Below are positions 1-36,808 of a stretch of 64,000 bases of DNA, piece by piece. The notes beneath the pieces were generated by a model, which saw only the letters and a list, made by a program, of their open reading frames with translations, made no database searches and had not been told where the DNA came from. How positions within the stretch are numbered: position 1 is the stretch's first letter; each line of letters begins with the position of its first letter. The DNA is taken from contig CALWKE010000002.1 of assembly GCA_944381185.1 (NCBI GenBank), positions 302,882 through 366,881 on the forward strand, read 5' to 3'. The DNA comes from an uncultured Clostridia bacterium. GTDB taxonomy: Bacteria; Bacillota; Clostridia; Christensenellales; UBA1242. The translations under genes were made by a program, and so were the position numbers.

Positions 1-3000
1 GAATGGATTATTAAAGATATCAGCATTGCCATATGAAACAAATTCAAGATAATACATTGTCATATCAATGCCATCTTTGTTTACGCCATCATAATAGCCA
101 GTAACAAAATAACTTGCATCAAGCACATCTTGGTCAATTGTAAAGATAATATTATCTTTTGTTATGTCTTGAACAGCACCTGCAGTTGAAAGGAATGAAA
201 CTTGCTCTGCTTCTAGTCTAAACACAACATGCGACTTAAAGAATGACTCGATTGTCATTTCATGGTAAATACCTGCAATAGTTATTGTTATAACACCAGT
301 TTTAACATCATAAACATATGAAATATATGCATCATTATGAGTCAAATAATAATCATCAGTTGATTGCTCATCAATGAAAGTGTAATTATAGGTGTATTTG
401 CCATTTTTAACATAATCTGTCACAATTTCATCAAGTGAAATTCTATAAGTTTCACCTTGATAAGAAATTAAAATATAGTCAACAACATAGCCATCATCAG
501 GTGTTATGGTAAACACATTTGTTGCAGTTGGCAAAATATTATTGATTGTTGATGTGATTGCACCAAAGTTATTGCCAGCTGTGTAAACATCAGAATCATC
601 AGTAAGTTCAGCACTTGTTACTATTGAATTTCTTATATCTGTAAAATTAGCAACAACTTGTTTTGATTCATTTTCTGCAGTTGCATCACTAAACAAGATA
701 TAACAATATTTAACTTCGGTATGAAGCCCACCATTTGAGCAAAGATAAAGCACGAAATCGCCCATCTTAAATGCATTGTTAACATCATATGTCACACCAT
801 CAACAACAAATGTGTTATATGCTCTTTGAGAGTAATAACTTTCAGCATTTGTTGAAGTTATCTTTGCCATATCATATCTATCAGTAACATCATTATATCC
901 AATATTAAAGTTATAGGTATTATTACCTATTTTTAATGATGAAAGATAAGATGAAATTTCAATTATTCCATTATCAGTTGAAAGTGGGTCAAATTTTGGA
1001 TAGAACACAACAATGTTTGTGTTTCCATAATAAGATTTTGATGTTTGATTCTTTGCTGTAACATTAAAGTTTGCATTAGAACTTGTTGCACCTTCACCTG
1101 CAACAGGCACATAACTAAACCCTTGAGGGTTTCTGTTAGAACTTCCATTTTGACTGAAGTTTAAGAAAGTATATGTTGTTGTTGCAAAAGTAAATCTTAA
1201 TGTGCTTATTTCATCAGCATAAGCCGTTGCGTCATCTACATATTCTTCTGTGTCATCAGCAAAGCAATTTGTGATTGTTATAACATAAGTAATCGTTCCA
1301 TCAGCATTTTTTATGTTATAAATGCTGTGTTGATTTGAAACAATAACATCTCCACCATAAAGTGTTCGCTCTGTGTTAAAGATTGAAGCACCAACAGCAT
1401 TAACAAGTTCATAACTTGACAAATAATATCCTAGTTTGGTTGTTATTTCAATAACCAAAGTTTTATTTTGAACAGAATGAATTTCATTCTTACCTTTAAC
1501 TTCAGTGTTTGGAATGTAAATATCAGTGTTATAAACTGAATTTGTTATAATATCAACACGACTCACAATATCGCCAATTGAACTAACACCATTATAGTTC
1601 AAATTACCAATGTATCCAGTTAATGAATCGTTAAGATAATCAAACTTACCATTAGAAGATTCTGTTATTGTTGTTGCTTTATCACTTGCAATAACATCAA
1701 CATTATACTTGTTTATAGTCTTTCTATAAACAGCATAAATATAAAGATTTCCATCAATTTGACTATCTGCATATGGCTGATAATTTGTTGAACCGCCAAC
1801 AAATTTACCAAATTCATACCCTTCTTCATAGATGTCAATAAATACTTTTTGGTCACCATTTAAGTAGTAATAACCAGTAATGTCACTATTTTCATCATAA
1901 TCGGCATAAATTTGAGAATTAAATGGAGTTGTTGAAACATACCAACCAGCAAGTGAATAGTCTGTTGGAAGTGCATCACGATAAAGTTGTGTTAACACAA
2001 TGGTATTATCATATTTAATTTTATTTAGAACATCATCATAGTTCTTATTTAACTCATGATAAAGTGCAGTGTTGTTTGCATTATCGTTTTCTTGTGTTGT
2101 TGCATAATAATAGAAATAGTCATAAATTTCTTTTCTATAATATGCATAGAAGTAATAGTCAGTTTGGTCAAAAATATCCCAATATCTAACAATTTCATTG
2201 CTACCTGTTGTTTTGCTGTAAAGTTCATAAATATAGTTTGTATCAGTTGCAAACTCATGAAGAACATAATCAGTTGGAGCAGTTGAAATAAGTTGCGTTT
2301 CATCAAAACTTGTTAACCCAGTATAGATGTCGTAGTTATCACTGCTATAGAATTTGTTTCCGTTATTATATATTGGAGTATTATAGATTGTTGATGAAGA
2401 TGCAGAATCTCTAGAGAATATCCAATAATAGAAGTCATATCCATAAGGAACATTTTCAGTTCCAGCAACAGCATTCAAATTAAATGTATCATAAGGAAGA
2501 ACAAGAGCTTTATTGAAAGTAACTGTTACAGTGGTGTACTCCTTATAGTTTGTATTAACATTATAGTATTCATCATAAAAACTTGTTGAATCATCAACTC
2601 TGCTTGTTCCATGATAAGCAGAATCATAATCATAATCTGAATAGTAGAAATGAACTTCATAGGTTCTTGGCGTATAGAACGCATAAGCATAAAGATGACG
2701 GTTATCGTCAACATTTGTTTGTGGATTGTCTTCATATCTGAAATAGAATTTATTGTCAGGTGTCCAAAGTTGCAAGTATTGCCCATTGCCAATTTCAGAA
2801 TCTGAAGCATATAAGTGTCTATTAGGATTAAATTCAAAATAATGATTAAGATATTCACTTGTAAGTTCGGTTATAGTTTCTTCTGATAATGGTGAATATG
2901 AAATAAACCACCCATTAAATATATATCCATCAAGTGAAACTGATTTAACTGTGAATAAGTCATTAAAATTAAATCCAGTTATGGTTTCAGTTGAACCATT

Positions 3001-6000
3001 TGTTGAAATATAATAGTCAACATTATTAGCAAATTCTGTTCCATCAGCATACTTATCATCGTTCAAATAAACTGAATTGTTTTCTGTCCAATAATAAGTA
3101 ATATCAAATGAATTTACTTCATAGAACATGTAAAGATATAGGTCATTGCTATAATCTTCAAAATAAGTTCTGTAATAGAAATATTTTTCAATTCCATCAC
3201 CAACAACCTTATCCCTATCAATTATCCAATATTGACTATAATAAGACTCTTCTTCTGGAGTTTCAAGCAAACTTGGGTCATTCAAAATATACTCATTTGT
3301 GATTGAAGTGATTGTTGAATCACTAGAAAGAAGTGTTTTTGATGTAAAGAACCCTCTAAATGTATAGCCTAACAAGTTATCGAATGTAATTTCTTCTCTG
3401 ATAACTTTGTTGTTATCATTGTTATAATACCAAACAACAACCGAGTATGTGTAATCGTCTTTATTATCACGAATTAAAACCACATCGTTATAGGCAACAG
3501 TTATATTAATTTCGTTAAAGTAGTTAGCAACAGAGTTTGCACTGCCAACTTTATTATCTTTTGAATTATAGAAATGTAAATTATATTCATTTGCAGTGTA
3601 GTATGCATAAGCATAAACATCTGTAGTGTATCTAAACAAGAATGATTCACCATTTTGAACCCAATTTTGTTCATAAAGTGACGAATTTGCGTCTTCATCA
3701 GATAAAATTTCACCATAGGTTGTTTTGTTGTTTTGATAAGAATTTAAATATTCAACGGTTTCACCAACCCAATTAAATTTAATAGATTGAAGAGGTGTTG
3801 TTGATATATACCAACCCTGCCATGTATAACCCGCAAAAACTTCCCTGTTATCAGCTGCAAGTGAATATGTGGTGTAAAGTTCATTAAAACTTACCTTTTC
3901 AATTACAGGAAGAGCGATAGATTCATAATGGTCGGTGTTGTTAATATGGTCAAACTTATTAGTATTTGCATTGTAATATGTAATTGTGTATTCATTTGCA
4001 GTGTAATATGCATAAGCGTAAACATCGCTAGTATATCTAAAGTAGAATTCTTCAGCATTTTTAGCCCAATTTTGTGCATACGTTTCATCGCCAAAAGAAA
4101 CATCATTCATCAAATAAACTGCTTGAGTGAAAGAGTTAATTAATGTTTCATTATTATTTGTTGAAGCAAGTGGTGATGTAACTGCATACCAACCATTAAA
4201 AGTGTAACCAACAAGTGAAGAATCTTTAACTTTTAATAATTCGTTAAAATCAATACTTACAACTTGTGTTTGCATGAAATATGCTGTGTAAATGGCATGT
4301 TCATACCTATTTGAACCAACAACTTCAACCAAGTTGTCACTAGGTTCATAATAGTAAACATTATAAGTGTTTGCTTCAAAAAGTGCATAAGCAAATACAT
4401 CATTTGTATATCTCCAAATGAATGTGTTTGATGGTGTCCAAACCTGTTTGTAATTATCATTATTAATAGCCGAATCCGAATTAATTGTTTGATTGTTTGA
4501 TGATGTGTTAATTTGATAACTATTTAAATAGATATCAGTATAAGCTGAAATATTTCCAACTGTTTGAATTTCATCAAAAACATACCAACCAAGGAATGTA
4601 TAGCCAATCAAACTTGTTTCATAGGTTGTATAATTTTCGTTAAATATTGAAGATGAAAATGCTTCATCAACTAAAACTTGAGAATAATTTGCCAAATTAT
4701 TAGCAGTTCCAACAGCATTATCATTTGGAATGTAATAATTAATTGAATATGAATTTGCTTCATAAACAGCATAAACATAGATATCGCTTGTATATCTGAA
4801 ATAGAATGTGCTTCCATTTGTCCAATTTTGTTGATAACTTGAGCCATTAGCCTCATCTGAAGAAATTGTAAAATGGTCGTCTAAATCATAGTTATTTGTC
4901 CAATAACTATTTCTATATTCATTTGTTGGCGAAGTAAATTTAACACTTGATGCAAGTGGAGATGTTGAAACATAGAAGCCAGTAAAGGTGTAACCAACAA
5001 GACCAAATTTATACGAATTAAAGTCAATAAGCATTTCATTAGAAATAGTTACTTTACCATTAAATGTAAATGGAATACCAGCGCTATCTCCCCTTATGCT
5101 ATATTCACCAGCATTGTTTGCACTTCCAACAAGGTTGTTGTCAGCATCATAATAGAACACATTATATTCATTTGGAACATAGAATGCGTAGGCATAAACA
5201 TCAGAAGTGTATCTCCAAGTAAATGTTTCACCTGAAGCCCAATTTTGCAAATAATTTTCACCGAAGCCACTATCTGAATAAATTCCAGCAACAAGTGAAC
5301 CTGTTTGAGAAGTTGTGTTATTAACTTGCAAACTTTCTAAATATGCTGAAGTTATTTCTGAAATTGAACCACTAAATGGAGTTGTTGAAACAAACCAACC
5401 TTTAAAGGTGTAGCCAGAAATTAAATCAGGTTCAACTTCCCAAATTGTATAGTCATTATTAAATACAGCAGTATTTGAATAAATTAAATCAAAATAGTTT
5501 GTATTGTAAATATCATTAACTCTGTTATTTAAAGGCTCATAATAAGACACTGTGTATGAAGTTTGCTCATAAATTGCATACACATAAATATCAGAATCAT
5601 ATCTATATAAAAAGCTTCCATCAACCGTGAAGTATTGTTCAATTTCATTTGAAGCATAAAGCCCGCTTGAAACTGCAATATCATCGTAAGCAAAATTTGT
5701 TATGTTTGTTATATCACTTTCTGTTAATAATTTGTTGGCAGAAAGCATTGAAGTTGTAACATAATAACCAACAATTTGATAGCCTAAAAGTGAAAAACCT
5801 TCGTCATCGTTGTTTCTAATAACATATTGACTATTGAAAATAACATTTTCACTAAAACTATTAAAATATAAATTGGTATTGTTTGTTGTTCCAATTAAGT
5901 TGTTGTTTGCTGTGTAATAGTTAACAGTATATTCATTTGGCTTATAAGATGCATAACAGTATATGTTATATGTATAGTGCCACTTTCCGTTATAGTCTAT

Positions 6001-9000
6001 GTTAGATTCAACATAATTGCCGTTTTCATCTTGTGTGTAAATTACCCATTTATCAAACGAATAACCTTTTGGAATAACTAGGTCAATAACGCTTTCGCCA
6101 AGTTTGTAGTTTGTGAGTTCAAATGTAACAACATCAAAAGAGTTATATCCACTATCAGTTCTATAATCCTCATCATCAGGTGTAACTGCAGCAGAATAGT
6201 TAGGCATAGCATTAACAAATTGATTGAAGAAATCGTTAACATTATCCCTGTCATAGTTAAATTCTTTATCAGTTATTTGATAATAATAAACAAAATAATC
6301 TGTCCAATCATACCAAGCATAAGCATGATAACTGTAATATCCATCATCACCCTTTTCAAGGTCAGGGTCAAACCAATCACATTCTTGGGTAATATTAACA
6401 ACATCACCCGCTCTAACAGAAATATTATCTTCTGTTATATTAAATACTGATGTAAATGAATCAAGACCGCTAGATGAAATATACCAACCTTCAATATGCA
6501 TACCTTCTGTGAAGAAGTTGATTGTTTTATTTTCGTCAGTTGTATCTGGATAAACAATAAACTCATATTTTGAACCAAACAAAATCATTTCAGATACAAC
6601 ATGATATTGATAATTTATATTAGTTAATTTATTGATATTAGCAAAGTTTGGTGCAATATAATAATAAATTTTATAGATTGCAAGTTCATAAATGCCATAG
6701 GCATAATAAACTATATCATTAGATTCTTCTTGATAAACATCAAGGAAAATTTCACTTCCTGCTTCCCAGTTAATGTGGTCAACAGTAAATTTATCGGTGT
6801 TGTCAGGAAGCGTGTTAGAGGTTGAAACATACCAACCAAGAAGAGTTGTTCCATAGAACACATTTTCATCTCTTGCAGTGAAATATTCATTGAATGTAAC
6901 AACTTCGTCAATATAATAACCATAAGTATCAATAATATTCAATGCTTCAGCATAACCAAGAGCATCAGAAACCTGCATACCTAATCGGTTAGCAAGGGTA
7001 ACAACACTTTCATCAGGTGTCAAAATACCATTGTCATTATAACCTGGAACAAAATATCTAACTCTATACTTGCAAGGTTCATAATAAGCAAAGGCATAAA
7101 CATCACCATCAAATGAATAATGTTCAATAGTTCCAATAAGTTTATCAGTTGAAACAAGTTTGCCTGAAATGCTGTCATATGAATTAATGCTTATTGCGTT
7201 TTGTTCTTCGCCGGTGAGTTCATGATTTGAAGAATCGCTTGGCAAATAGAAATACCAACCAGCAAATTCATATCCATGTGGAACTGTTTTTTCTGAACCT
7301 GAACTTACAAGGTTAATAAGGTCGAATGAAGAGTTAAAGTCAACGGTAACCTTTCCCTCATAAACTGTTTCATAAATTTGATATTTGCTTGTATTGTTAA
7401 CATATCCAAGTGAATTTTGGAAAGTTGTGTAATATTGAACTGTGTAAGCATTTGCTTCATAATGAGCATAGAAATAGTAAGTATCATTATCAAAAAGTTC
7501 CCAAATAAATGGCTCTGTGTTAACTTGATGAGAAGTTATTTCACCTGCATAAGTTGCAGTAGAATAATACCAACCTACCTGTGTGTAGCCCGGAATTTCA
7601 AAGGTATTTGAAGTTAAAGTGCTTCCAGTAACAATTGTTTTTGATGTTGCAAAAGCATATTTGTTTGCATAGTTAACTTTATCAATGTCAGAAGAAACCA
7701 TATCTGAATCAGTTTGTGACGAATAATAATTAACTGTGTATGTATTAAGCTCATAAACTGCATACACATACATATCTTGTGGATATTGCCAAACAAATGA
7801 CTGACCAAGGTCATAATTTTTAACAAAAGCAGTTGTTGAAGTGTTAGAATCAGGAGAAACTGTTGTCACATACCAACCAACAAGGCTTGTTCCTGCTGGG
7901 CAAATACTGCTTGAGTCAACATTATCAGGGAATCCCGATGGAATTGTGTAAGTAGAGTCAAATTCAATCAAATCTCTTTGACCCGTTGATGTGTTATAAA
8001 TTCTGTTTCCGTTAACCGTTGGTTTGTTTATGTTGTGATAATCGTAATCGGTGATATATGAGAAATATAAGTAATAACTTATTGGTTGGAAAATTGCAGT
8101 AAATGTAACTGTTCCCTCTTCTGAATTTAAATTATTAAATGTTGTTGCAAAAACACCTTCGGTTGTTGCACCAGTAACAGTTGCACCACCAATAATGTGG
8201 TCGCAATTGGTTGACATTCCTGAAATTGTCCAGCCAGCAAATGTATAACCTATTCTTGATGGGTTAGAAACTGAAAACTCTGTTCCAAAAGTTGCAGTTG
8301 TTGGGTGATTTGTTCCATGAGTTCCACCATTTAACACATATGTAATAGAATAAACTCTTCCAACCCAATTTGCAGTAAATGTAACCGTTCCACTAGTTGA
8401 GTGCAAATTTTTAAATGAAGTTGCAAATGTTTTTGAAACTGAAGTTGCAGTGGTTGTTGATGAACCAATAGTATGAGTAACAGTATCCATACCGGTTATA
8501 TCCCAACCAGTAAAATCATAACCAATTCTTGTAGGATTATTGATTGTTATTGTTTGGTCATAAGCAGCAGAAGTTGGATGGTTTGTTCCATAACTTCCAC
8601 CGTTAAGGTTATAATTAATTGTGTAAACATTAGCAGACCAAGTTGCAGCAAAATTTACCGTTCCTGAAGTCGAACGCAAATTTTTAAAGGTTGTTTCTTT
8701 TATTCCTGAAAGAGATGTAGCAGTGCTTGTGTAACTGCCGTAATAATGGTCAACAGAATCAAGATTTGTGATATTCCAACCAGCAAAAGTGTATCCAACT
8801 CTTGTTGGATTATTAACAGTAAATGTCACTTCAAAAGTAGCAGAAGTTGGATGATTTGTTCCATAACTTCCACCATTAAGTGTGTATGAAATTGAATAAG
8901 TATTCTGTTTCCAAACTGCATAAAGTGTGGCAGTTCCACCATCAATTGATATGAAGTTAGGTTTTGAATATGTTCCACCTGAAGAATAAATTGTTCCCGT

Positions 9001-13494: not shown

Positions 13495-13523
13495 AGTATA
13501 CCAAAAACAAAGCAAATTTACAA
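13495..13523 (-). promoter_or_regulatory. SigA-type promoter of paralog 1
   Basis: TTGTAA-N17-TATACT with extended TG; the same element lies upstream of all three paralogs. Confidence 0.75.
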
Positions 13524-13877: not shown

Positions 13878-13911
13878 AAAAAAACAGAAAGATTTCTCTT
13901 TCTGTTTTTTT
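13878..13911 (-). terminator. Intrinsic terminator of paralog 2
   Basis: A7-CAGAAAGA-tttc-TCTTTCTG-T7 just past the stop at 13938. Confidence 0.85.
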
Positions 13912-27005: not shown

Positions 27006-27034
27006 AGTATATCAAAAGCCCTATATTTTTACAA
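27006..27034 (-). promoter_or_regulatory. SigA-type promoter of paralog 2
   Basis: TTGTAA-N17-TATACT with extended TG. Confidence 0.75.
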
Positions 27035-27514: not shown

Positions 27515-28603
27515 CTACAAAAACAAAAATATCACAAAATTAATAACACCAACTATTGGATATACAATCGTCACAAAAAATTTGAAATCAACAAACCCAA
27601 AAACAAACGGAAGAACAATCGCTAAAGCAGAAGCCCAAAAATTCTTTTTAACAAAAGGCTTAATTTCTTTTTTAACTCCAAACAAACAACCCATAAGTGA
27701 AGATATCAATGCAAGCACAAGTCCAATAACATAAATAAAATATAAAGCACCACCCTTATGTGAAAAGTATTCCAAAAAAGGCATCGAATAATTTGAATAT
27801 CTCATGTTAGCAATCAAAAATAATGAAAATAAAATTAAAACAAAACTCAAAGCAGCAGCAAAAATACCTGAAATTATGTTAATTTGTTTTTTAGAAAACT
27901 TAACATTAAATTCTGCAAGAATTGGCTGAACTTGAATTATATTCATAAAAACATAATTACTTGCAAAAAAAATTGAACCAACCAGCCCAAGAGTTGAAAA
28001 ATCACTTAAATCAAAAATGTAATTTAAGTCGATTTTGCTATCACCAAAACATAAATTTATGCTAAAATTTGCAATAATAAAAATTAAAAAAATCAAAACA
28101 AAATAATCTAACTTATCAAGCCCCTTAATGCCAATCAAAAGCACAACAAACACCAAAGTTAAACATAAAATTATTGGAATAAAATAGTTATCAAAAAATA
28201 ATTTTTTCGCAAGCACTTGAAGCCCTGAAAACATTGCGGCAGAAACCGCAAAACAATTCAAAAACAGCAAAAATCTTTTTATATTAAATTTATTTAAAAA
28301 TGTATTATTTGATATATTTTTATCAAAATTTTGCATTTTTAGCATATTTTGATAATTATTATTTTGAATAAAAATCTTTTTTGTTAAAATAAAAATTAAA
28401 GCAAAAAATATAATACACCCAAGTGGCAAAAACATTTTAAATCTAACAAAAAATTCATAAATTTCAGAACCAGAAATAAACCCAACACCTAAAATTGAAC
28501 ATGAAAACAAAAGCACAATTTTAAGCATAAATTTAGTTGTTATTTTATAACTATTATTAGTTATGTTATTATCACTATTAACTTGCTTGATTTTTGCATT
28601 CAT
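27515..28603 (-). CDS. Polytopic membrane protein, YkvI-like (362 aa)
   Basis: About 10 hydrophobic segments; ILGVGFISGSEIYEFF resembles the YkvI IGAGFASGxEIxxFF motif; C-terminal VYPIVG. Confidence 0.7.
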   Translation of the reverse strand: MNAKIKQVNSDNNITNNSYKITTKFMLKIVLLFSCSILGVGFISGSEIYEFFVRFKMFLPLGCIIFFALIFILTKKIFIQNNNYQNMLKMQNFDKNISNNTFLNKFNIKRFLLFLNCFAVSAAMFSGLQVLAKKLFFDNYFIPIILCLTLVFVVLLIGIKGLDKLDYFVLIFLIFIIANFSINLCFGDSKIDLNYIFDLSDFSTLGLVGSIFFASNYVFMNIIQVQPILAEFNVKFSKKQINIISGIFAAALSFVLILFSLFLIANMRYSNYSMPFLEYFSHKGGALYFIYVIGLVLALISSLMGCLFGVKKEIKPFVKKNFWASALAIVLPFVFGFVDFKFFVTIVYPIVGVINFVIFLFL

Positions 28604-29065: not shown

Positions 29066-29095
29066 AAAAAAGCATATCAAATGATATGCTTTTTT
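29066..29095 (-). terminator. Intrinsic terminator of paralog 3
   Basis: AAAAAAGCATATC-aaat-GATATGCTTTTTT immediately after the stop at 29099. Confidence 0.85.
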
Positions 29096-29098
29096 ATT

Positions 29099-32000
29099 TT
29101 ACATTCCTACGATTTTATTTGCATATTCAGACCAATTAGTATTTTGTTTATATTGTTGAACTAAATTATTTGGCACATATATATATGTTAAATTATCACA
29201 ACCGGTTAATATATCAGGATCAATATCAACCATTGTAGTTGAATTTAATGTTAACGATGTTAAATTAGAACAACCCCAAAATACTCCACTACCTAAAGAT
29301 TTTACACCTTGTGGTAGATTTATTGATGTTAAATTAGAACAACCCTGAAAAGCTCCATTACCTATACTTGAAATATTAGATGGAATAGTTATTGACCTTA
29401 AATTTCCACTTAAACTAAATGCAGAATAATCAATTTTAACAACTGAATTAGGAATGGTATAGGTAGTATTAGTTTTTGAACCAGGATATTGAACCAATGT
29501 CTTCATATCATATGTAAATAAAACCCCATCAACTGAAACATAATGTTTATTATTACTATCAACAGATATACTAGTGATTTGTCCGCTGACATAAGTAAAG
29601 GCACCAGTACCAATATTTTCAATAGTAGACGGAATTTCAATTGTTCGAACTGAACTGCCAGATATAGAAAAACCATCAATTTCTAATACTGGATATGTTT
29701 TATTATCAGAAGTATTTACATATGAACTCGGTATTACTACATTTGTAGCAGATCCTGAATAATCTATTAAAGTGTTGTTTTTAAAGGTAAATCCATTAAC
29801 TGTTATTTCAACATCAGTTTCATCAATACCATCTCTTTCCCACACAGCATATAAAGTTATAATATTAGATGTATAATAATTTCTCCAAGTGTAAGTTGAA
29901 TTTGCTGAATAATTCACAGACCCTGTTGATGATGTTGACCAACCTTGGAATTTATAACCACTCAAATTAAAACCACTATTTTTAATAGTCACAGATGCCG
30001 AACTAACATAATTGCTTGAAGTTTGAGAACATCCTCTCCATTGCGTTGTGCTAGACGCAGTTGTTGAACCAATTACTGATGAACTTGCATCTGATGGCCT
30101 GTTTGAATTATAAGTAATTTGAACAGTTCTACTAAACACTGGATATCTATAAACAATTCCATTATTTGTTGAAGTTAAATTTCTATAAGAATTGCCTGAA
30201 TAAATGTTTGGTTCTGCATAACTGCCTGAAGTTGATGTCCAACCTTGGAAACTCCAACCATCTGAAATTGCAGAAACTCCACCACGCTCATCAATATACC
30301 AATCATATTCTTCATAAGTATAATATTCACCATAAGTTGCATCAACATCATAATATGTTACCGATGTTCCTGTTCCATAAGGTAAATAGAATCTAACAGT
30401 ATAAGTGTTAGCCGTCCAATCGGCTGTGAATGTGACGGTTTGACCATTATTTGAACCCAAGTTTTTGAAATATAAATAACTAGGATTTGTTGGTCCTGCT
30501 GTTGTGTCAGTAATAATATCTGCACTGCTATCACTTGGAGTATTTGAGCAATAATGACCAACCCCTTGCGTCATTCCACTGATAACCCAGCCATTAAAGG
30601 TGTAACCTGTTCGTGTTGGACTTGAAACTTGGAACCATGAATTGAATGTTGCACTTGTTGGATGATATGTTCCATAAGAGCCACCACCAAGTGAATATGA
30701 AATTTTATAAGTATTAATGCTCCACTTTGCAGTAAAGGTAACCGTCCCCGCATTTGAATTAAGATATCTGAACCACGTGTAAGAACTATTTGTTGAGTAA
30801 GAAGTTCCCGTGCTGGTTACATATGACGATGTGCTCGTTCCAAAGTAATGTGTGGTGCCACTTGTCATGCCACTAATTGTCCAGCCACTAAAACTATAAC
30901 CCGTTTTTGTTGGAATTGACACATTAAACCAATTATCATAAACAACGGTTGTTGGATGCGATGACCCATGTGTTCCGCCATCAAGTGAATATGAAATCTT
31001 ATATTCAGCCCTTTGCCAAACTGCCTCAAAGTTAACAGTTTCAGCAAAATCACCACGCAAATTTTTAAAATATGTTGCAGAAGTTGAAAGGGTTGTTGCA
31101 GATGTTGTTTGATATGAAGATTGTGAAGTTCCATAAAGGTGAAGTTCATTATCCATGCCAGTTATTAACCAACCATCAAAATTAAACCCTGACCTTGTTG
31201 GCAATGGAATGTTCACCCATTCATCATAAGTTACCCACAGAACTTCGTAGCCCAATGAACTTAAATCAAAATCATCACTTTCAAATGTTATGTAATAACC
31301 ATTTGACCCTTCACCATAATAAACCGCATAAGCATAATAAACAGGATTTTCTGAATCATAGGCACTTGTGTTACTGAAAATCCAAAAAATATCCGACCCA
31401 ACAGTTGCTTCATAATAAGTTCCATCAAAAGTGTAAGTTGTGATTGAGTCTTCAGTTAATGTTCCAAAATCATAATGGTTTGGTGTTATAAGCCAACCAT
31501 TAATTCCAGAAGACAAAATGTTGAGCAAATGATAATTTGAATTATAAGTTGTTGTGTCTGTGCTATAAGTTGAATAGTTTGACAGGTCGTTTCTCCAGTC
31601 TTCACCACTTGCAACCATATATTGAATTGTTATATCAACAAAGGTATAAGCGGCATAAATATGGATATCTCGTGGAGCATAACCGTTTTCAGAACTATAA
31701 GTTTCTTCTTGACCAGCATTTATGCTTTTGCCTGAAATTGGCGATGCAACAGTGTTATCACCATTCCACGAAACAAGATTTGTTGTTGAAGAATATGTTG
31801 AACCAGTGTTGTTAACAACCCAGAACAAAAGTTTAACGCCTTGTGGAAGTTCAATTTCATTTGAATTTAAAGCATTAACTGATGAAACATAAGCCTTAAA
31901 ATTGAAATCATATCTAACTCGTTGTGTTTTTGTTGCTGTCATATTGCCAGCAGTGTTAATTGTGTCAATAGAATCATCAACAATATCATAACTTGCTGGC

Positions 32001-35000
32001 AAGAAATGATATGTTATATTGTAATAATTAGCAGACCAATTTGCTGTCAAAACCAAAGCACCACCTTCAATGCCAAGATTTCTAAACCTAGTAGCATTAA
32101 CAATTCGGTCATAGTTAACATTCACTTCATCAGTATATCTTCCGTTAGTTGATGTGAATGCAACCCAAGATGAACCATAGTAAAAATAGTGCGTACATTC
32201 ATCATTAAGTCCACTAAATGACCAACCTGTAAAGGTGTAACCAGCACGCGTTGGATTAGAAATTGTTACATCAGCATTATACTCTGCAGTTGTTGGATGA
32301 TATTGACCAAACTCGCCACCATTTAAATTATAACCTATATTATATGTATATGCCCGCCAATTAATTGTTAAAGTGACAGTCGCACCATTTTGTGAATGCA
32401 AATTTTGAAAATATAGTTGATTTGTTCCAACATTGAATGTTGATGCCCTTGTCGTTGAATATGATGAGTTTGATGTTCCGTAATAATGAGTGCAATCAGT
32501 TGATGCGTCTGAAACAATCCAACCATCATAATAGTATCCAACTGGCACAGATGATGGTGCACTTATATTAAACCAAGAATCAAACTTCGCACTTCCCGGT
32601 TTTGATGTTCCAAGAGTTCCATCACCTTCTTCGTACTCAATATAATATATGTTAACCGACCATCCAGCCGAAAAATAAACTGTTCCATATCCTGAATGTA
32701 AATTATAATAATAGGTTCTTGAAGTTGATGAATTTGTGTATGACGATGATGTGCTGGTTGCATATGACGATGTGCTTGTTCCAAACCTGTGAGTTAAACC
32801 ACTTGTCATGTTTGTAATTGTCCAACCTGTGAAAGTGTAACCCGTTCGTGTTGGGTTTGAAACTTGGAACCAACTGTCATAATATACTGTTGTTGGGCTG
32901 TTTGCCCCCAAACTTGCACCACTCGCATTAAGTGAGTAAGAAATATAGTATGGTTTTGAATCCCAATTTGCAGTAAATGTTATCTCCTGCCCGTCTGTGG
33001 TTCCTAAATTTTTAAAATACTTGTAACTTGCCGATGCTGTTGTATATGAAGTACCCGTAGAAGTTCGATAAGAAGAAGTTGTTGTTCCAAAATAATGAGT
33101 AACACCACTTGTCATTCCCGAAATTGTCCAACCACTAAATGTGTAACCCGTTCGGGTTGGGTTTGGCACTTGAAACCATTCATCATAAGTTGCAGATAAA
33201 GGTTTTGATGATAAACTTCCCCCACCCAGTTCATATTCAATATCATATTCATTTGCAGTCCATGTCGCTGAAAAAGTAGTTTGATCATAGTTATAAATAG
33301 AACCATACATATTTCTAAAGTAAATATCATTAGGACCAGTTTTAAATGAATTTGATGTTGTTGAATTATATGAACTAGTTGATGTTCCATAATTTTTTGT
33401 TATGGTATGCCCACCTGAAATTGTTGTAGAAAAACTCCAACCATTAAAAGTATATCCAACCTTTGTTGGTATCAAAATATTAAACCAACTATCAAAAGTT
33501 GCAATATAAATGTTTTCAACTAATTTTCTTGCCACTGTTGATACTGATAAATTACTATAAGATGGTAAATATCCTGAATTATAAGAAATTGATGAACCTG
33601 TATCTACCCAACCTGTTGTTGAATTATAATAATATGTTGTTCCATTTGAAATAAAAGTTCCACCATATGTATTAACCGTTGTATCATCTGTATAATAATA
33701 CACACCACTAGCAGATGTTGATACTAATATAAAGCCAGATTTTCCATTAAAGCTAAGGTATATAGCACCATACGCCGGTGTTGAATTTGTTTTATAAAAA
33801 TAAGTACCTGAAATATGACCTATACTTTGGTTAGCAGTCGTAAGAGTTGGTGAAAATTTTTCCAAATTTGTTGATGTAAATATTCCATCATTCAAATCAA
33901 ATTCAACATAGTATTTAATTGGTTCCCAAATTGCATAAAGTGTTAAGTTTCCACCCGTTGTGTAGGTGTATGACGAAGATGCTGAATAACTTGTTCCATT
34001 TCCATTTGATCTAGTATTCCATTTAACAAATGTGTAACCTGTATTTGAAAAAGTTGAAGAACTCTTTGTTGTGAATGACGACTTATAGGTTACTGATTGA
34101 GTGCTAGTTCCATTCGTTCCGTCATTCCCATTCCTGTCATATGTGATTGTATAAGATTTTGGTGTAAACTTTGAATAGAAAGTAGTTCTAAAATAATTAT
34201 TTTTCACTAACGAAATTGAACCGCTACTTCCACCATAAGTTAATGTGTTTATATGAGTTGAAGATGAAAAATCACTATAAGATCTCGAATCATCAGTATC
34301 ATAATACCAAGCTGAAAAATTAGCGTTACTTACTGTTGGGGTGTAATCAGCATAATATAATGTAATACCACTAGCCATTGGAAATGAGCCAGATTTATAA
34401 GTTGTTGACTGATATCGTGGATAGTTTGTTGTATCAGGGTCATAATCACTTGAATCATATCTAAAGTAATAATAATGATATTTTGTTGAATAACTCATTG
34501 AAATATGATCTTTGTTTTCAGGCAAATGTGCATCATAGTAAATCAAATTCCAAAATGATAGAACACATCTATATTGAAGGTTTCCATCAGACATATAAGA
34601 TGCTGTGAATCCTTCATTTACATTATTTCCTGACCATGAAACTGAAACTGAACCATTACTATTAAAGGTTGTGCTGTATATTCTTAAAATGCAATCAATT
34701 GAACCCAAACCACCTTGTGTTTTAAAATCACATTCAAAATCTGTTATATATTTAGAATTTCGCATTGAAATAGTTAAAAGCGGATTCCACCCATTGGCAC
34801 AATCAACTCTAGCCATTTCTACACCGCCTGAAGAAAAAGTCCAATAATCATAATAATAAGGTGAAATTTCAGATGAACTTGAAGTGTCTTTTGATTTGTT
34901 ATATGTTGAAAATGTAAACGATGTTTTTTCTTCTGGTTTTGTTTGTGAAACTTTAACATCTTCAAATGTAATAAAATAAGAGTTTTCGCCTTGTGTTAAT

Positions 35001-36736
35001 TCAATTCCAGCACCAACATTCAAATTCAAAAAGTTAAATTCATCAATATTTTGAAGTAATGTGTTCCCCTTAATATCAACCAAATCAAATTTTTCACCAC
35101 TATTAACAAAATAAATGTCCGCTTTTTGTGTTAAAAGCACGGCAATATCTGAACTATCAACAAAATCTTCAATAATTGAATAGTTGCCTGTTTCAACATC
35201 AATTTTATAATAGTTTTCACCATCTGTTGCAATTGCTACCCCATTATGGTTAACAATATTCATATTATCAGTGAAAAATTCAGGACTAACAACAACCTTT
35301 CCGTCAATATTCATTAAACCCAAATATGAGTCTTTTTTGATTGAAAAAACCGAACTTGACGCTGTTCCATTTAATGAATAATTATCTTCTTCAGTAAAAT
35401 TATAAAGTGTTTTAACTTTGCCATTTTCAACCTTCAAAAGCCTTGAGTTTGTTAAAAATGTAGACGAACCTGCATAGGTTATATATTCTTTGCTATTTGA
35501 AGAATATGAAATAATTTCATTAGAATTGTTATCATAATATGCAATGTAATAATCATTTAAAAGTGAATAATTTTCCCCAACTTTTTGTTGTGCAATATAA
35601 TAACTGTTTGTTAACTTTAAAGTTGAAGTAGAAATTGTTGATGCAAGTCCATAACCACTTTTTAAATTAAACTTTTGTTCTGTTGGATTTTTTGTTGTGT
35701 AATCAAAAATTGTGTAACTATGATTTACCAAAATATCATTATCATCAGAAATTGTTGTTGAAGTTATTTCATTTTTATCAAAAACATAGGTGCTATAATC
35801 TATTAAATATTTTCCTTCCGTTAAAAAGTTAACTGAATAATCAGTTTTCACTGCCCCATTATCACTATTAATAACAGTTTCCTTTTCAAAAACAGAAAAA
35901 CCATCATCAGTTAAATAAACAAGTTTTAAACCATTTGAATCAGAATAATAAAATGAATCATCAAAAAACGCAAAATTACAATTATAATCAGCACCAAATT
36001 TAATGCCTGAAATCATATTTAATCTAGTATTATCATTTGGGTCGATTTTTTCAGTTGAAAGTTCATAAAAATAAACATTGACATCTGCTTTTGGTGAACC
36101 ATCAGAATAATCTATATTTGAATATGTTGAAAATGAAAAGTATCTATCTTTAATATTAAAACTTTCAAAAATATATAAATTTTTACCTCTTGTGTCAAAT
36201 GTATATATTTCTTTAATGTTATCAAAATCACCAAAATAAACAAGTGTATAAACATTGTTGATTGGATCTGTTAAATTTTGTTCAGAAAATTCAGAAACAA
36301 GCACAACATAATCTTCATAAACGGTATTAACTGAATATGATAATGAGTTTTCTAAAATAAACCCACCCTGTGCATCACTTTCAGTTGAAACTTGTTCTGT
36401 TAAATTTCGAGCCAAATATGTTCCATCTTCATTTTGTTTGAAAACAATAAAATTTTCATTTGAATTTGTATCTTCGTAAACAAAATAATTTTTACCAAAT
36501 TGTTTAACTTTGTCATATTCGCAAAAATTTTCATAAGGCACATTTTCAAGTATTGTTTTATCAAGATATGTGCTATTACTATTTATTTCATTTGCAAGTT
36601 GTTTTTGAGCCGTTGTAAAACCCGATGCATTATCTTTCTTTAACCCAAAAATGCAACCTAAAACAATTGCAAGCACACACACCACCGCAACCAATGAAAT
36701 CAATAAAACTTTAACTGATTTTTTCATTTTACTCAT
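29099..36736 (-). CDS. Giant surface protein, paralog 3 (2545 aa), ending in a BspA-like LRR_5 domain
   Basis: ATG at 36736 with AAGGA RBS; N-terminal TM; shared N-domain; PTRTGYTFxGW repeats; C-terminal IPNSVVKIDYSAF / AFQGCSNLTSI LRRs. Confidence 0.92.
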   Translation of the reverse strand: MSKMKKSVKVLLISLVAVVCVLAIVLGCIFGLKKDNASGFTTAQKQLANEINSNSTYLDKTILENVPYENFCEYDKVKQFGKNYFVYEDTNSNENFIVFKQNEDGTYLARNLTEQVSTESDAQGGFILENSLSYSVNTVYEDYVVLVSEFSEQNLTDPINNVYTLVYFGDFDNIKEIYTFDTRGKNLYIFESFNIKDRYFSFSTYSNIDYSDGSPKADVNVYFYELSTEKIDPNDNTRLNMISGIKFGADYNCNFAFFDDSFYYSDSNGLKLVYLTDDGFSVFEKETVINSDNGAVKTDYSVNFLTEGKYLIDYSTYVFDKNEITSTTISDDNDILVNHSYTIFDYTTKNPTEQKFNLKSGYGLASTISTSTLKLTNSYYIAQQKVGENYSLLNDYYIAYYDNNSNEIISYSSNSKEYITYAGSSTFLTNSRLLKVENGKVKTLYNFTEEDNYSLNGTASSSVFSIKKDSYLGLMNIDGKVVVSPEFFTDNMNIVNHNGVAIATDGENYYKIDVETGNYSIIEDFVDSSDIAVLLTQKADIYFVNSGEKFDLVDIKGNTLLQNIDEFNFLNLNVGAGIELTQGENSYFITFEDVKVSQTKPEEKTSFTFSTYNKSKDTSSSSEISPYYYDYWTFSSGGVEMARVDCANGWNPLLTISMRNSKYITDFECDFKTQGGLGSIDCILRIYSTTFNSNGSVSVSWSGNNVNEGFTASYMSDGNLQYRCVLSFWNLIYYDAHLPENKDHISMSYSTKYHYYYFRYDSSDYDPDTTNYPRYQSTTYKSGSFPMASGITLYYADYTPTVSNANFSAWYYDTDDSRSYSDFSSSTHINTLTYGGSSGSISLVKNNYFRTTFYSKFTPKSYTITYDRNGNDGTNGTSTQSVTYKSSFTTKSSSTFSNTGYTFVKWNTRSNGNGTSYSASSSYTYTTGGNLTLYAIWEPIKYYVEFDLNDGIFTSTNLEKFSPTLTTANQSIGHISGTYFYKTNSTPAYGAIYLSFNGKSGFILVSTSASGVYYYTDDTTVNTYGGTFISNGTTYYYNSTTGWVDTGSSISYNSGYLPSYSNLSVSTVARKLVENIYIATFDSWFNILIPTKVGYTFNGWSFSTTISGGHTITKNYGTSTSSYNSTTSNSFKTGPNDIYFRNMYGSIYNYDQTTFSATWTANEYDIEYELGGGSLSSKPLSATYDEWFQVPNPTRTGYTFSGWTISGMTSGVTHYFGTTTSSYRTSTGTSYTTASASYKYFKNLGTTDGQEITFTANWDSKPYYISYSLNASGASLGANSPTTVYYDSWFQVSNPTRTGYTFTGWTITNMTSGLTHRFGTSTSSYATSTSSSYTNSSTSRTYYYNLHSGYGTVYFSAGWSVNIYYIEYEEGDGTLGTSKPGSAKFDSWFNISAPSSVPVGYYYDGWIVSDASTDCTHYYGTSNSSYSTTRASTFNVGTNQLYFQNLHSQNGATVTLTINWRAYTYNIGYNLNGGEFGQYHPTTAEYNADVTISNPTRAGYTFTGWSFSGLNDECTHYFYYGSSWVAFTSTNGRYTDEVNVNYDRIVNATRFRNLGIEGGALVLTANWSANYYNITYHFLPASYDIVDDSIDTINTAGNMTATKTQRVRYDFNFKAYVSSVNALNSNEIELPQGVKLLFWVVNNTGSTYSSTTNLVSWNGDNTVASPISGKSINAGQEETYSSENGYAPRDIHIYAAYTFVDITIQYMVASGEDWRNDLSNYSTYSTDTTTYNSNYHLLNILSSGINGWLITPNHYDFGTLTEDSITTYTFDGTYYEATVGSDIFWIFSNTSAYDSENPVYYAYAVYYGEGSNGYYITFESDDFDLSSLGYEVLWVTYDEWVNIPLPTRSGFNFDGWLITGMDNELHLYGTSQSSYQTTSATTLSTSATYFKNLRGDFAETVNFEAVWQRAEYKISYSLDGGTHGSSHPTTVVYDNWFNVSIPTKTGYSFSGWTISGMTSGTTHYFGTSTSSYVTSTGTSYSTNSSYTWFRYLNSNAGTVTFTAKWSINTYKISYSLGGGSYGTYHPTSATFNSWFQVSSPTRTGYTFNGWVISGMTQGVGHYCSNTPSDSSADIITDTTAGPTNPSYLYFKNLGSNNGQTVTFTADWTANTYTVRFYLPYGTGTSVTYYDVDATYGEYYTYEEYDWYIDERGGVSAISDGWSFQGWTSTSGSYAEPNIYSGNSYRNLTSTNNGIVYRYPVFSRTVQITYNSNRPSDASSSVIGSTTASSTTQWRGCSQTSSNYVSSASVTIKNSGFNLSGYKFQGWSTSSTGSVNYSANSTYTWRNYYTSNIITLYAVWERDGIDETDVEITVNGFTFKNNTLIDYSGSATNVVIPSSYVNTSDNKTYPVLEIDGFSISGSSVRTIEIPSTIENIGTGAFTYVSGQITSISVDSNNKHYVSVDGVLFTYDMKTLVQYPGSKTNTTYTIPNSVVKIDYSAFSLSGNLRSITIPSNISSIGNGAFQGCSNLTSINLPQGVKSLGSGVFWGCSNLTSLTLNSTTMVDIDPDILTGCDNLTYIYVPNNLVQQYKQNTNWSEYANKIVGM

Positions 36737-36779
36737 ACTCAATTTTCCTTTGCAAAAATTACACTTCTATACAATAATT

Positions 36780-36808
36780 AGTATATCAAATAATATAGAT
36801 TTTTACAA
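36780..36808 (-). promoter_or_regulatory. SigA-type promoter of paralog 3
   Basis: TTGTAA-N17-TATACT with extended TG. Confidence 0.75.

What the first reader, a model, noticed from the sequence alone, without database searches (positions are those of the whole stretch)
1..36808. Tandem family of giant N-anchored modular surface proteins with a shared base and shuffled payloads
Seen: three same-strand paralogs occupy most of the left 37 kb. Each has basic residues plus one TM helix, a ~630-aa acidic beta-rich domain with WG-like motifs, a divergent ~150-aa domain, then different repeat sets. Paralog 1 shares its 'GGxxGxxHPTSATF' and 'YNSNxPSxAS' modules with paralog 3, in the opposite order. 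It shares its distal region with paralog 2 (ISSYLSSLKI vs LISYLSSVRI; TPDDGYVV vs APNDGYII; AGIY vs SGIY). Paralog 3 ends in an LRR_5 tip. No LPXTG, SLH or cell-wall-binding motif was seen. Inference: a stalk-and-tip adhesin display system diversified by module shuffling, a large investment for an otherwise streamlined genome and possibly used for host or partner-cell attachment.
Basis: partly seen in the sequence, partly recalled or inferred. Interest (0 to 1): 0.78.

Follow-up and report, generated by a model that had tools for sequence, protein, structure and literature searches.

The report
Giant membrane-anchored surface fibre gene trio
An uncultured, small-genome gut bacterium devotes about 4% of its DNA to three neighbouring genes for enormous cell-surface fibres that share a previously undescribed propeller-shaped base domain, a new variant of the familiar bacterial adhesin design.

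Summary
Three minus-strand paralogs fill 93% of window 1-36808. Paralog 1 runs off the window and is really 11,382 aa; the others are 4,334 and 2,545 aa.

- **Shared build.** Each has one N-terminal hydrophobic helix, an acidic all-beta N-domain of about 600 aa, a poorly conserved linker, Flg_new (InlB B-repeat) modules, and a paralog-specific distal part. Paralog 3 ends in BspA-type LRR_5.
- **The N-domain.** It matches no Pfam, NCBIfam or PDB sequence. AlphaFold2 gives a confident beta-propeller-like array. It was found only in this genus: 15 of 21 genomes, against no credible match in 400 other genomes sampled from the order. It always sits at the N-terminus of giant proteins.
- **The locus.** dnaG-sigA-trmK, then paralog 3, a small polytopic membrane gene, paralog 2, paralog 1. 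This order is the same in all four species examined.
- **"Shuffled payloads" is only partly right.** Distal regions are position-specific and collinear between species. Mosaicism is confined to the N-domain and linker (gene conversion, divergent strain alleles), the proximal Flg_new array, and the LRR tip.

Best reading: N-anchored fibrillar adhesins in a genome where no sortase was found. This is a new variant of a known kind. No ligand is known, and adhesion and polarity are inferred.

The parts
1..13428 (-). The gene continues 20.7 kb beyond the window start, to C2:282164.
   Evidence: Intact orthologous frames of 10,354 aa and 14,181 aa exist in two other species.
13321..13419 (-). G1 N-terminal basic stretch plus single hydrophobic helix (aa 4-36), the predicted signal-anchor.
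   Evidence: Hydropathy scan. Conserved K-rich/helix/KK pattern in 12 of 12 family members examined.
11509..13311 (-). G1 N-domain (aa ~40-640): acidic, propeller-like, no described family.
10909..11508 (-). G1 linker region (aa ~640-840): poorly conserved, and a divergent allele in another strain.
8089..10908 (-). G1 proximal Flg_new array: five 'YNSN'-subtype units, then three 'HPTSATF'-subtype units (aa ~840-1780).
13495..13523 (-). Promoter-like site of G1 (TTGTAA, 17 nt spacer, TG-TATACT), conserved upstream of all three genes.
   Evidence: RNA-library contigs from two runs end at 13467 and 13476 (weak).
13878..13911 (-). Terminator-like hairpin after G2.
13938..26942 (-). G2 (paralog 2): 4,334 aa from the ATG at 26942.
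25023..26825 (-). G2 N-domain (aa ~40-640). Contains a ~200-nt tract 95-99% identical to G1. Replaced by an allele more than 10% divergent in two DNA runs.
13941..14630 (-). G2 C-terminal conserved domain (aa ~4105-4334), shared with G1 aa 10683-10888 and with orthologues.
   Evidence: The fold is unresolved.
27006..27034 (-). Promoter-like site of G2 (same motif).
27515..28603 (-). 362-aa polytopic membrane protein of a small unnamed family. It sits between paralog 3 and paralog 2 in all 4 species examined. A link to the fibres is not shown.
29066..29095 (.). Palindromic terminator-like hairpin after G3.
29099..36736 (-). G3 (paralog 3): 2,545 aa from the ATG at 36736.
34862..36619 (-). G3 N-domain (aa ~40-625). 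In the AF2 model, residues 1-557 have mostly pLDDT 80-95 and form about 11-12 four-stranded beta units.
29102..29830 (-). G3 C-terminal BspA-type LRR_5 tip (about the last 245 aa; Pfam best stretch at 29162-29467). Only 43-49% identical, with indels, in an otherwise 94-100% identical variant protein.
36780..36808 (-). Promoter-like site of G3 (same motif).

Best explanation
The locus encodes three paralogous giant cell-surface fibres (2,545, 4,334 and 11,382 aa) of an uncultured, reduced-genome gut Clostridia bacterium in which no sortase was found.

Proposed working, with each step marked as shown or inferred:
1. Each gene is transcribed from its own conserved extended -10 promoter. The motif is shown; its activity is inferred.
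2. The protein is exported through Sec and stays tethered by an uncleaved N-terminal signal-anchor helix (inferred from hydropathy).
3. An acidic beta-propeller-like domain of about 600 aa sits next to the membrane. It belongs to an undescribed family found only in this genus in the data searched. The fold is predicted; the position follows from the anchor.
4. A stalk of Flg_new repeats and long, very diverged beta-rich repeats carries a distal end away from the cell. That end is a BspA-type LRR cap in the shortest protein, and a shared but unidentified C-terminal region in the two longer ones.
5. The fibres bind host, food-particle or partner-cell ligands (inferred from domain types and analogy only).

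Evolution: the trio predates the species of the genus, and the distal parts evolve vertically and collinearly. The N-domain and linker, the proximal repeat array and the LRR tip are reshaped by gene conversion between paralogs and by allele replacement between strains.
For: **Reality of the genes**
- Long intact frames.
- Intact orthologues of 10,354 and 14,181 aa in other species.
- Contigs of two metatranscriptome libraries cover G1 and G2 at about 98-99% identity.

**Anchor**
- One hydrophobic segment, aa 4-36, and no other in any of the three.
- No sortase, SLH or Omp85 in the 94.7%-complete genome, with positive controls ringing.

**N-domain is a family of its own**
- No Pfam or NCBIfam hit and no PDB sequence hit.
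- Only 27 clusters at E<=1e-3 among 1.84 billion representatives. Of these, 23 begin the match at residues 41-76. Three of the other four are fragments or partial matches.
- The longest are 1.6-4.1 kaa.
- Found in 15 of 21 genus genomes.
- Found in 0 of 194 genomes of the other 57 genera sampled from the family.
- Found in 1 marginal 21-bit match among 400 other genomes of the order.

**Fold**
- AF2 residues 1-557 mostly pLDDT 80-95, all-beta.
- Foldseek top hits are tandem propellers at E~1e-9, but TM is only 0.15-0.2.

**Stalk and tip**
- Flg_new in all three paralogs and LRR_5 in G3.
- Of 21 relatives scanned, 15 have Flg_new and 9 have LRR_5, up to 16 stretches, always C-terminal to the N-domain.
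- Flg_new is labelled a stalk domain in a figure legend of PMC9210967 and linked to gut adhesin-like proteins in PMC9723798 (passages read).

**Polarity**
- The LRR tip is the strain-variable end of G3.
- The C-termini are acidic, with no wall-binding domain.

**Evolution**
- Synteny in 4 of 4 species.
- Collinear distal orthology.
- G1 and G2 N-domains are sisters, 100/100 support.
- A tract 95-99% nt identical lies in a 55-70% background.
- One bridging DNA contig shows the G2 N-domain replaced while its flanks are 98.5% identical.
Against: **Nothing experimental**
- No experiment shows surface location, adhesion or any ligand.
- Whether the N-terminal helix is an anchor or a cleaved signal peptide could not be tested; no signal-peptide predictor was available.

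**Weak structural matches**
- I could not inspect the model to count blades or propellers.

**No known binding domain in the two longest proteins**
- Their shared C-terminal domain folded poorly (pLDDT 58) and matched nothing.

**A pattern unusual for an adhesin**
- A membrane-proximal domain that is among the most divergent parts is not what is usually expected. Positional orthologues are 16-30% identical there, against 45% for the G1 distal part.

**Limits of the RNA evidence**
- It rests on assembled contigs of RNA libraries, which may contain DNA.
- No RNA contig covered G2's first ~1.6 kb, the small membrane gene or the 3' end of G3.
Confidence: 0.68

Rival explanations
1. Reversed polarity. 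The N-terminal hydrophobic segment is a cleaved Sec signal peptide. The propeller-like N-domain is then the free, ligand-binding head, and the C-terminal regions hold the fibre on the cell. This is the arrangement in serine-rich repeat proteins and the Apilactobacillus kunkeei Giant proteins.
For: - The N-domain is hypervariable between species (16-30% identity).
- It recombines within genomes and is replaced between strains, as binding heads often are.
- A conserved small residue (G) followed by KK ends the hydrophobic stretch.
- In A. kunkeei the binding domain is N-terminal and the anchor C-terminal (PMC12863079, abstract and sections 6 and 12 read).
Against: - The hydrophobic stretch is about 23 residues, flanked by basic residues on both sides, with no AxA-type site.
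- The C-termini are acidic, net -15 to -49.
- No SH3b, LysM, CWB, SLH or GW domain was found by Pfam.
- In G3 and 9 of 21 relatives the C-terminal part is LRR_5, a ligand-binding type of repeat.
- That C-terminal part is the strain-variable end of G3.
Confidence: 0.12
2. The fibres are not primarily adhesins. They form a structural or protective coat: a brush-like envelope layer, a spacer, or a phage or immune decoy.
For: - G1 and G2 have no recognised adhesive domain.
- The distal rods are conserved and collinear between species, as expected for structural elements.
- No S-layer (SLH) genes were found, so something else may cover the cell.
Against: - Three proteins of very different length, each with its own promoter, and an LRR cap that varies between strains, fit ligand recognition better than a uniform coat.
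- Flg_new-rich proteins are associated with gut attachment in the passages read of PMC9723798.
Confidence: 0.12
3. The proteins are contact-dependent or polymorphic toxin delivery proteins with C-terminal toxin domains.
For: Giant size, filament-like repeats and unidentified C-terminal regions.
Against: - No RHS/YD, haemagglutinin, PT-HINT or toxin domain was found by Pfam in any part.
- The genes downstream of each giant are an oxidoreductase, another giant gene or the membrane protein, not small immunity-like genes.
- The C-terminal domain is conserved across species rather than polymorphic.
Confidence: 0.03
4. Assembly artefact or decaying pseudogenes.
For: This is a MAG-type assembly, and the genes are repetitive.
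Against: - Uninterrupted frames of 2.5-11.4 kaa.
- The same three-gene layout in 4 species.
- Only one DNA-level tandem repeat in 36.8 kb.
- Independent DNA contigs of 12-16 kb from other runs match at 98.5%.
Confidence: 0.01

Closest known systems
Giant1-5 surface proteins of Apilactobacillus kunkeei (PMC12863079; abstract, sections 6 and 12, and keyword passages read)
   Same: - A run of consecutive giant surface-protein genes (3,000-8,000 aa) taking about 6% of a 1.5 Mb genome. Here it is 4.0% for the trio and 6.2% with the neighbouring giant gene.
- A shared terminal domain, long imperfect repeats, and recombination shaping the positional homologues.
- No dedicated transporter nearby.
   Different: - No sequence relationship.
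- The kunkeei proteins have a cleaved signal peptide, an N-terminal beta-solenoid binding domain, mostly alpha-helical rods and a C-terminal SH3b-like (DUF5776) wall-binding end.
- Here the anchor is a predicted N-terminal helix, the N-domain is propeller-like, the rods are beta-rich Flg_new-type, and no SH3b or DUF5776 was found.
Fibrillar adhesins of Firmicutes with Flg_new stalks (Monzon et al., PMC9210967; passages read)
   Same: Great length, a repetitive stalk including Flg_new, a terminal candidate binding region, and a surface anchor.
   Different: - The anchor is a predicted N-terminal transmembrane helix instead of a C-terminal sortase motif or wall-binding domain.
- A ~600-aa uncatalogued propeller-like domain sits between anchor and stalk.
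- The size, up to 11,382 aa, is far above typical.
Listeria internalin B (LRR - Ig-like inter-repeat - B-repeat - GW anchor; architecture recalled, plus abstract listing of PMC3986869)
   Same: Combines leucine-rich repeats with the B-repeat (Flg_new) module on a surface protein.
   Different: - The order is mirrored: anchor, then B-repeats, then LRR.
- The LRR type is BspA-like LRR_5, not the internalin type.
- No GW or LPXTG anchor.
- 4 to 18 times longer.
BspA-type LRR surface proteins (Pfam PF13306; function of Tannerella BspA recalled)
   Same: G3 ends in LRR_5 at 81 bits. Relatives carry up to 16 LRR_5 stretches.
   Different: G1 and G2 have none.
Giant 10,000-30,000-aa proteins of mammalian-gut Clostridia noted by West-Roberts et al. 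(bioRxiv 10.1101/2023.11.21.568195; passages read)
   Same: Gut Clostridia, over 10,000 aa, with Listeria-Bacteroides repeats and leucine-rich repeats. A binding role was proposed there too.
   Different: - In the passages I read, that text does not describe an N-terminal anchor-plus-propeller family, a conserved three-paralog locus or their recombination pattern.
- I did not read the whole paper or its supplements.

Membership tests
Fibrillar adhesin (as characterised in PMC9210967, Introduction) | Large length | tested here: met
   2,545, 4,334 and 11,382 aa
Fibrillar adhesin (as characterised in PMC9210967, Introduction) | Rod-like region of repeated stalk domains | tested here: met
   Flg_new above the Pfam cut-off in all three. 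Repeat maps.
Fibrillar adhesin (as characterised in PMC9210967, Introduction) | An adhesive region | tested here: inconclusive
   LRR_5 cap in G3 only. No known adhesive domain in G1 or G2. The shared C-terminal domain model had pLDDT 58 and no fold match.
Fibrillar adhesin (as characterised in PMC9210967, Introduction) | Cell-surface anchor | tested here: inconclusive
   A single N-terminal hydrophobic helix by hydropathy. No LPXTG, and no sortase in the genome. Cleavage versus anchoring could not be predicted with the tools available.
BspA-like LRR proteins (PF13306 LRR_5) | LRR_5 match above the gathering score | tested here: met
   G3: 81.2 bits against 27.7. G1 and G2: none.
Internalin family | N-terminal cap plus internalin-type LRR, followed by an inter-repeat region and a C-terminal LPXTG or GW anchor (architecture recalled) | tested here: not met
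   The LRR is C-terminal and of LRR_5 type. No LPXTG. No GW or SH3-type domain reported by Pfam.
A. kunkeei Giant / SRRP-type adhesins | N-terminal beta-solenoid binding domain and C-terminal SH3b-like (DUF5776) or wall-anchor domain (PMC12863079) | tested here: not met
   The N-domain model is a propeller-like all-beta array. No DUF5776 or SH3 hit.
WG_beta_rep / KWG repeat (PF14903) for the N-domain | Significant match to the repeat model | tested here: not met
   E=2.5, 8.6 bits, in G3 only, and nothing in G1 or G2. A language-model look-alike score of 0.90 is only a lead.
DUF5046 (PF16465) for the N-domain | Sequence or profile match | tested here: inconclusive
   No hmmscan hit at E<=10. 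The family is not found in the genome. hhalign of the 22-sequence N-domain profile against the one member I could fetch gave probability 0.9%. The language-model score of 0.92 is a lead only. A proper DUF5046 profile was not available.
Polymorphic toxin / CDI-type filamentous proteins | RHS/YD or haemagglutinin repeats, a C-terminal toxin, and a downstream immunity gene (recalled) | tested here: not met
   No such Pfam domains. The downstream genes are an oxidoreductase, a giant paralog and a membrane protein.

The most novel reading that the evidence does not exclude
The N-terminal propeller-like domain is a new kind of membrane-proximal 'collar'. It would lock very long fibres into the wall of a monoderm lacking sortase, and it would be swapped by recombination because it is itself exposed to phages or host IgA. 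The three fibres of graded length (about 2.5, 4.3 and 11.4 kaa) would form a layered attachment apparatus. A reduced-genome gut Clostridia bacterium would use this apparatus to live attached to a partner cell or to the mucosa, much as ultra-small episymbionts do.
Probability: 0.12. Interest if true: 0.75.

Novelty: new variant of a known kind. Interest (0 to 1): 0.45.

Why it matters
**Lifestyle clue.** Genomes of about 1-1.4 Mb in this gut Clostridia genus keep three intact giant genes, up to 14,181 codons, at one conserved locus. That argues these fibres are central to how the organisms live. It offers a handle on the lifestyle (attached? partner-dependent?) of an uncultured lineage seen here in chicken and other animal gut metagenomes.

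**A domain worth cataloguing.** The family adds an uncatalogued domain of about 600 aa that could be given a Pfam model. It is also an example of an N-terminal-helix-anchored fibrillar adhesin, a class that sortase-motif-based adhesin screens miss.

**A system for studying mosaic evolution.** Vertically inherited rods combine with recombining ends. This makes the locus tractable for studying how giant surface genes evolve, in parallel with the A. kunkeei giant genes.

Tried and rejected
- **Pattern scan.** A scan of genome contigs with the 3-paralog alignment found 314 pattern matches but no relative. The patterns came from the G1/G2-specific conserved tract. The genome search was used instead.
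- **DUF5046 / KWG lead.** DUF5046 is absent from the genome. It was found in 1 of 301 genomes sampled from the class. hhalign against that member gave probability 0.9%. The lead is not supported.
- **Shared C-terminal domain of G2/G1.** The 6-sequence alignment gave a model with mean pLDDT 58. Foldseek against PDB gave no match at E<=1e-3. The language-model search gave no usable hit. No conclusion about its fold.
- **Invertible promoter or phase switch.** No convincing inverted repeats flank the promoters.
- **Recent repeat amplification.** Only one DNA tandem repeat in 36.8 kb: 267 bp, 2.1 copies.
- **Rfam.** No RNA family in the window.
- **The small membrane protein.** No Pfam hit in 10 of its 18 family members at E<=1 beyond chance-level rows. 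My recollection that its GxGFxSGxE motif resembles YkvI-type transporters is untested.
- **Stretches without RNA contigs.** These are window 25342-30000 and the G1-G2 spacer. Contigs cannot show absence, so they are not evidence of silence. The coincidence of RNA contig ends with the predicted promoter and terminator is only a weak hint. One RNA contig has a loose end at 13890.
- **Odd joints and high depth at 27150-28990 in DNA runs.** These are explained by a dispersed intergenic repeat, not by deletion of the membrane gene.
- **Representative library.** It lists no protein longer than 4,126 aa and no representative close to G1 or G2. Its count of 27 clusters is therefore a lower bound.

Full report
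**What is there**

The left 36.8 kb of the window holds three very long minus-strand reading frames:
- 1-13428, open at the window edge.
- 13938-26954.
- 29099-36742.
- A 362-aa frame at 27515-28603 lies between the last two.

The window lies at G000:C2:302882-366881 of a 1.37 Mb, 5-contig, ~31% GC assembly.

In the genome G1 is not 4,476 aa. It is one uninterrupted frame of 11,394 codons (C2:282164-316345), 11,382 aa from its ATG. G2 is 4,334 aa and G3 is 2,545 aa from their ATGs.

The three genes total 54.8 kb, 4.0% of the assembly. With it, four giant genes take 6.2%.

**Anatomy**

Each protein begins with a basic stretch and a single strongly hydrophobic segment at aa 4-36. There is no other hydrophobic segment and no LPXTG-type C-terminal signal.

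Residues ~40-640 align across all three. In the trimmed alignment G1/G2 are 62% identical and G1/G3 25%. This region is acidic, pI 4.2-4.3.

Residues ~640-840 are poorly conserved.

Flg_new (Listeria-Bacteroides / InlB B-repeat) modules follow in all three. G3 ends in BspA-type LRR_5, 81 bits against a cut-off of 27.7.

HMMs built from the G1 copies give these orders:
- G1: five Y-type units, then three H-type units.
- G3: H-type units, with Y-type at aa ~861 (weak) and ~2204.

So the 'opposite order' is confirmed.

Beyond aa ~1800, G1 is made of further very diverged repeats:
- A repeat set at aa ~1,800-3,600.
- A ~630-aa module present twice, at ~4140-4770 and ~5680-6340.
- A long set at aa ~6,400-10,000.
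- A non-repetitive C-terminal ~1,400 aa.

Pfam sees only sub-threshold Flg_new signal there: whole-protein E 1.7e-15 in the last 3,666 aa, with no single stretch passing. It sees no enzymatic or toxin domain.

G2's distal part matches G1's distal part weakly but collinearly, at 23-28% identity with E from 5e-4 to 1e-12. This includes a shared C-terminal domain, G2 4105-4312 against G1 10683-10888.

**Transcription signals**

All three genes are preceded, at the same distance, by the same promoter-like element: TTGTAA, 17 nt, TG-n-TATACT. G2 and G3 are followed by terminator-like hairpins.

No inverted repeats suggest an invertible promoter.

Contigs of two metatranscriptome libraries from two studies cover G1's 5' part and most of G2 at ~98-99% identity. 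One contig is 8,233 nt. They stop at 13467/13476 and resume at 13896/13945, near the predicted start site and terminator. DNA contigs bridge the spacer.

This is consistent with separate transcripts, but it is weak. Contigs of RNA libraries can contain DNA, one has a loose end at 13890, and the uncovered parts prove nothing.

**The N-domain**

It has no match in any catalogue searched:
- Pfam or NCBIfam, even at E<=10. The best rows are chance-level, and WG_beta_rep scores E=2.5 in G3 only.
- The sequences of solved structures.

A profile of the three paralogs found only 27 clusters at E<=1e-3 among 1.84 billion representative proteins.
- In 23 of them the match starts at residues 41-76.
- Three of the other four are fragments or partial matches.
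- The complete ones are 1.6-4.1 kaa.
- The list holds nothing above 4,126 aa and no representative close to G1 or G2, so it is a lower bound.

I scanned 21 of the 27 against Pfam, leaving out six short fragments:
- 15 carry Flg_new.
- 9 carry LRR_5, up to 16 stretches.
- 1 carries DUF6273.
- 4, which are short or partial, carry nothing.

Whole-genome searches give a narrow range:

| Search | Result |
|---|---|
| Own genome | 3 copies |
| Sample of the family | 4 of 201 genomes, all in the window's genus; 0 of 194 genomes of 57 other genera |
| Genus, 22-sequence profile | 15 of 21 genomes, up to 3 copies each |
| Sample of the order | 1 marginal 21-bit match, with a stop inside, among 400 other genomes; only the two best candidates per genome were scored |

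So the family was not found outside the genus in the genomes searched.

AlphaFold2 on G3 aa 37-800 with a 22-sequence alignment gave a confident all-beta model for residues 1-557. Most 10-residue blocks have pLDDT 80-95, and the strands form about 11-12 groups of four. Residues 558-764 have pLDDT below 50.

I read this as a propeller-like fold class, not as membership of any family. I could not inspect coordinates to decide between one and two propellers.

A language-model look-alike search pointed to DUF5046 (0.92) and KWG-repeat clusters (0.90). This could not be confirmed.

**Organism and envelope**

Neighbouring genes are housekeeping: dnaG, sigA, trmK, ppdK, recO, era, ybeY, mutSL. There is also a YqfD sporulation protein and a class A PBP.

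DnaG is 66-81% identical to MAGs labelled Clostridia from animal and human gut, and ~40% to Christensenellaceae.

Runs holding G3 are chicken-gut and other gut metagenomes: 20 rows from 9 studies, one of them possibly the source.

No sortase, SLH or Omp85 was found in the 94.7%-complete genome, although the control genomes rang. I infer a monoderm with no sortase detected. For such a cell, a membrane helix or a lipid anchor is the obvious way to hold a surface protein.

**Evolution: testing 'shared base, shuffled payloads'**

I examined flanks in four species (G000, G193, G122, G049). In all four the order is the same:
- dnaG - sigA - trmK - Zn-ribbon gene
- a 1.6-2.5 kaa paralog (position 1)
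- a 354-362-aa polytopic membrane protein
- a 4.1-4.7 kaa paralog (position 2)
- a giant paralog (position 3): 10,354 aa in G193, cut by contig ends in the other two

The payloads are position-specific and collinear:
- G1 3004-11368 aligns to G193's giant 2257-10347 in a single 45%-identical segment.
- G2 ~1375-4313 aligns to its three positional orthologues at 30-34%.

For the large distal payloads it is met.

Variation is concentrated elsewhere.

*a. The N-domain*
- Positional orthologues are only 16-30% identical, although G1's distal part is 45%.
- G1 and G2 of this genome are 63% identical and are sisters in the tree (100/100). Positions 2 and 3 of G122 are also sisters (98/99).
- A ~200-nt tract (aa ~50-120) is 95-99% identical at the DNA level, against a 55-70% background.
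- This is concerted evolution by gene conversion.

*b. Between strains*
- One 16.5-kb DNA contig of another run matches window 11511-23873 at 98.5%, and 26834-27084.
- It has about 2.6 kb that does not align at 90% in place of G2 aa ~37-950.
- It has about 0.6 kb in place of G1 aa ~640-846.
- A second study's run shows the same collapse over the G2 N-domain.

*c. The proximal Flg_new array*
- It differs between positional orthologues in number, subtype and order.
- G1: Y x5, then H x3.
- G049 position 3: Y and H interleaved.
- G193 position 3: mainly H-type.
- G122 position 3: H only.

*d. The tip of G3*
- A database protein is 94-100% identical to G3 over aa 1-2300, with one dip to 73%.
- It is only 43-49% identical, with indels and extra LRR_5 units, over the last ~245 aa.

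So the locus is a conserved scaffold with recombining ends, rather than a base onto which payloads are shuffled.

**How it most likely works**

The chain runs: Sec export; retention by the uncleaved N-terminal helix; a membrane-proximal acidic propeller-like domain; a Flg_new and beta-repeat stalk, probably hundreds of nanometres long for G1 (my inference from domain count); and a distal binding end.

- Shown: gene structure, domain content, family range, synteny and recombination pattern.
- Inferred: topology, surface exposure and adhesion.

The LRR cap is C-terminal and strain-variable. Together with the acidic, domain-less C-termini, that favours an N-anchored polarity over the reversed, SRRP-like polarity. 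The hypervariable N-domain keeps that rival alive; I give it 0.12.

What the propeller does is open. It could be a wall-embedded collar, a spacer, or a second exposed binding face. I did not test that idea here, and this family was not found on lysins or other small proteins.

The small polytopic membrane protein is conserved in the locus. It belongs to a family of only 18 proteins with no Pfam match and no source name other than 'hypothetical'. Because the whole region is syntenic, this does not show a functional link.

**Comparison with what is known**

- **A. kunkeei Giant1-5** is the closest analogue in genome economy and evolution: five consecutive genes, 6% of a 1.5 Mb genome, recombination between positional homologues (PMC12863079). 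It is unrelated in sequence, with opposite polarity and different folds.
- **Fibrillar adhesins.** In build, the proteins fit this concept (PMC9210967), with Flg_new as stalk. The anchor is non-canonical and there is an extra base domain.
- **Giant gut-Clostridia proteins** with Listeria-Bacteroides repeats and LRRs have been mentioned in one preprint (10.1101/2023.11.21.568195; passages read).
- **Literature searches.** My three searches turned up no description of this N-domain family or locus. The library is limited, and I did not see supplements.

**Verdict**

The genes are real and well conserved, and the domain family is uncatalogued. This is a new variant of a known kind of system. It is interesting mainly for the biology of an uncultured reduced-genome gut lineage and for how giant surface genes evolve.

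Noticed in passing
window 27080-27370 and 28660-29000 (the spacers either side of the 362-aa membrane gene): GC-rich short dispersed repeats of about 40-200 nt, e.g. around '...GGTCCTTCGATTACGCTAACGCTGCACTCAGGACGACA'. They occur here in several copies and in dozens of further copies across the genome, especially C1:498-626 kb. There is no Rfam match. They explain the excess depth and odd joints seen in the metagenome contigs.
   Followed up: partly
window 27515-28603: A 362-aa polytopic membrane protein with no Pfam or NCBIfam family. It has only 17 relatives in 5.8 billion clusters, none with a source name other than 'hypothetical'. It sits between the position-1 and position-2 giant genes in all 4 species examined.
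   Followed up: partly
window 41304-43637 and 43634-44608: A separate 777-aa BspA-type LRR_5 protein (231 bits). Its start overlaps by 4 nt the end of a 324-aa ORF with no Pfam match. The pair is inserted between dnaG and ppdK.
   Followed up: no
G000:C3:98971-128932 (outside the window): A second cluster of very long same-strand ORFs (4,110, 897, 3,617 and 1,324 codons) whose N-termini look multi-pass hydrophobic. Not examined.
   Followed up: no
G205:C49:44853-46469 (another species of the genus): The N-domain there heads an open frame of 14,181 codons, longer than G1.
   Followed up: no
window 8896-9459: The only DNA-level tandem repeat in the three genes: 267 bp, 2.1 copies, 87% matches, inside G1's Y-type Flg_new units. 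It is a sign of a recent unit duplication.
   Followed up: no
window 50248-51348: A YqfD (stage IV sporulation) homologue in a 1.37 Mb genome. This suggests retained sporulation genes in a reduced Clostridia lineage.
   Followed up: no
G000:C2:241856-271819 (outside the window): The neighbouring 9,979-aa gene has a different, lipobox-like N-terminus and a hydrophobic stretch near its C-terminus (aa 9894-9912). It shares no N-domain with the trio.
   Followed up: partly
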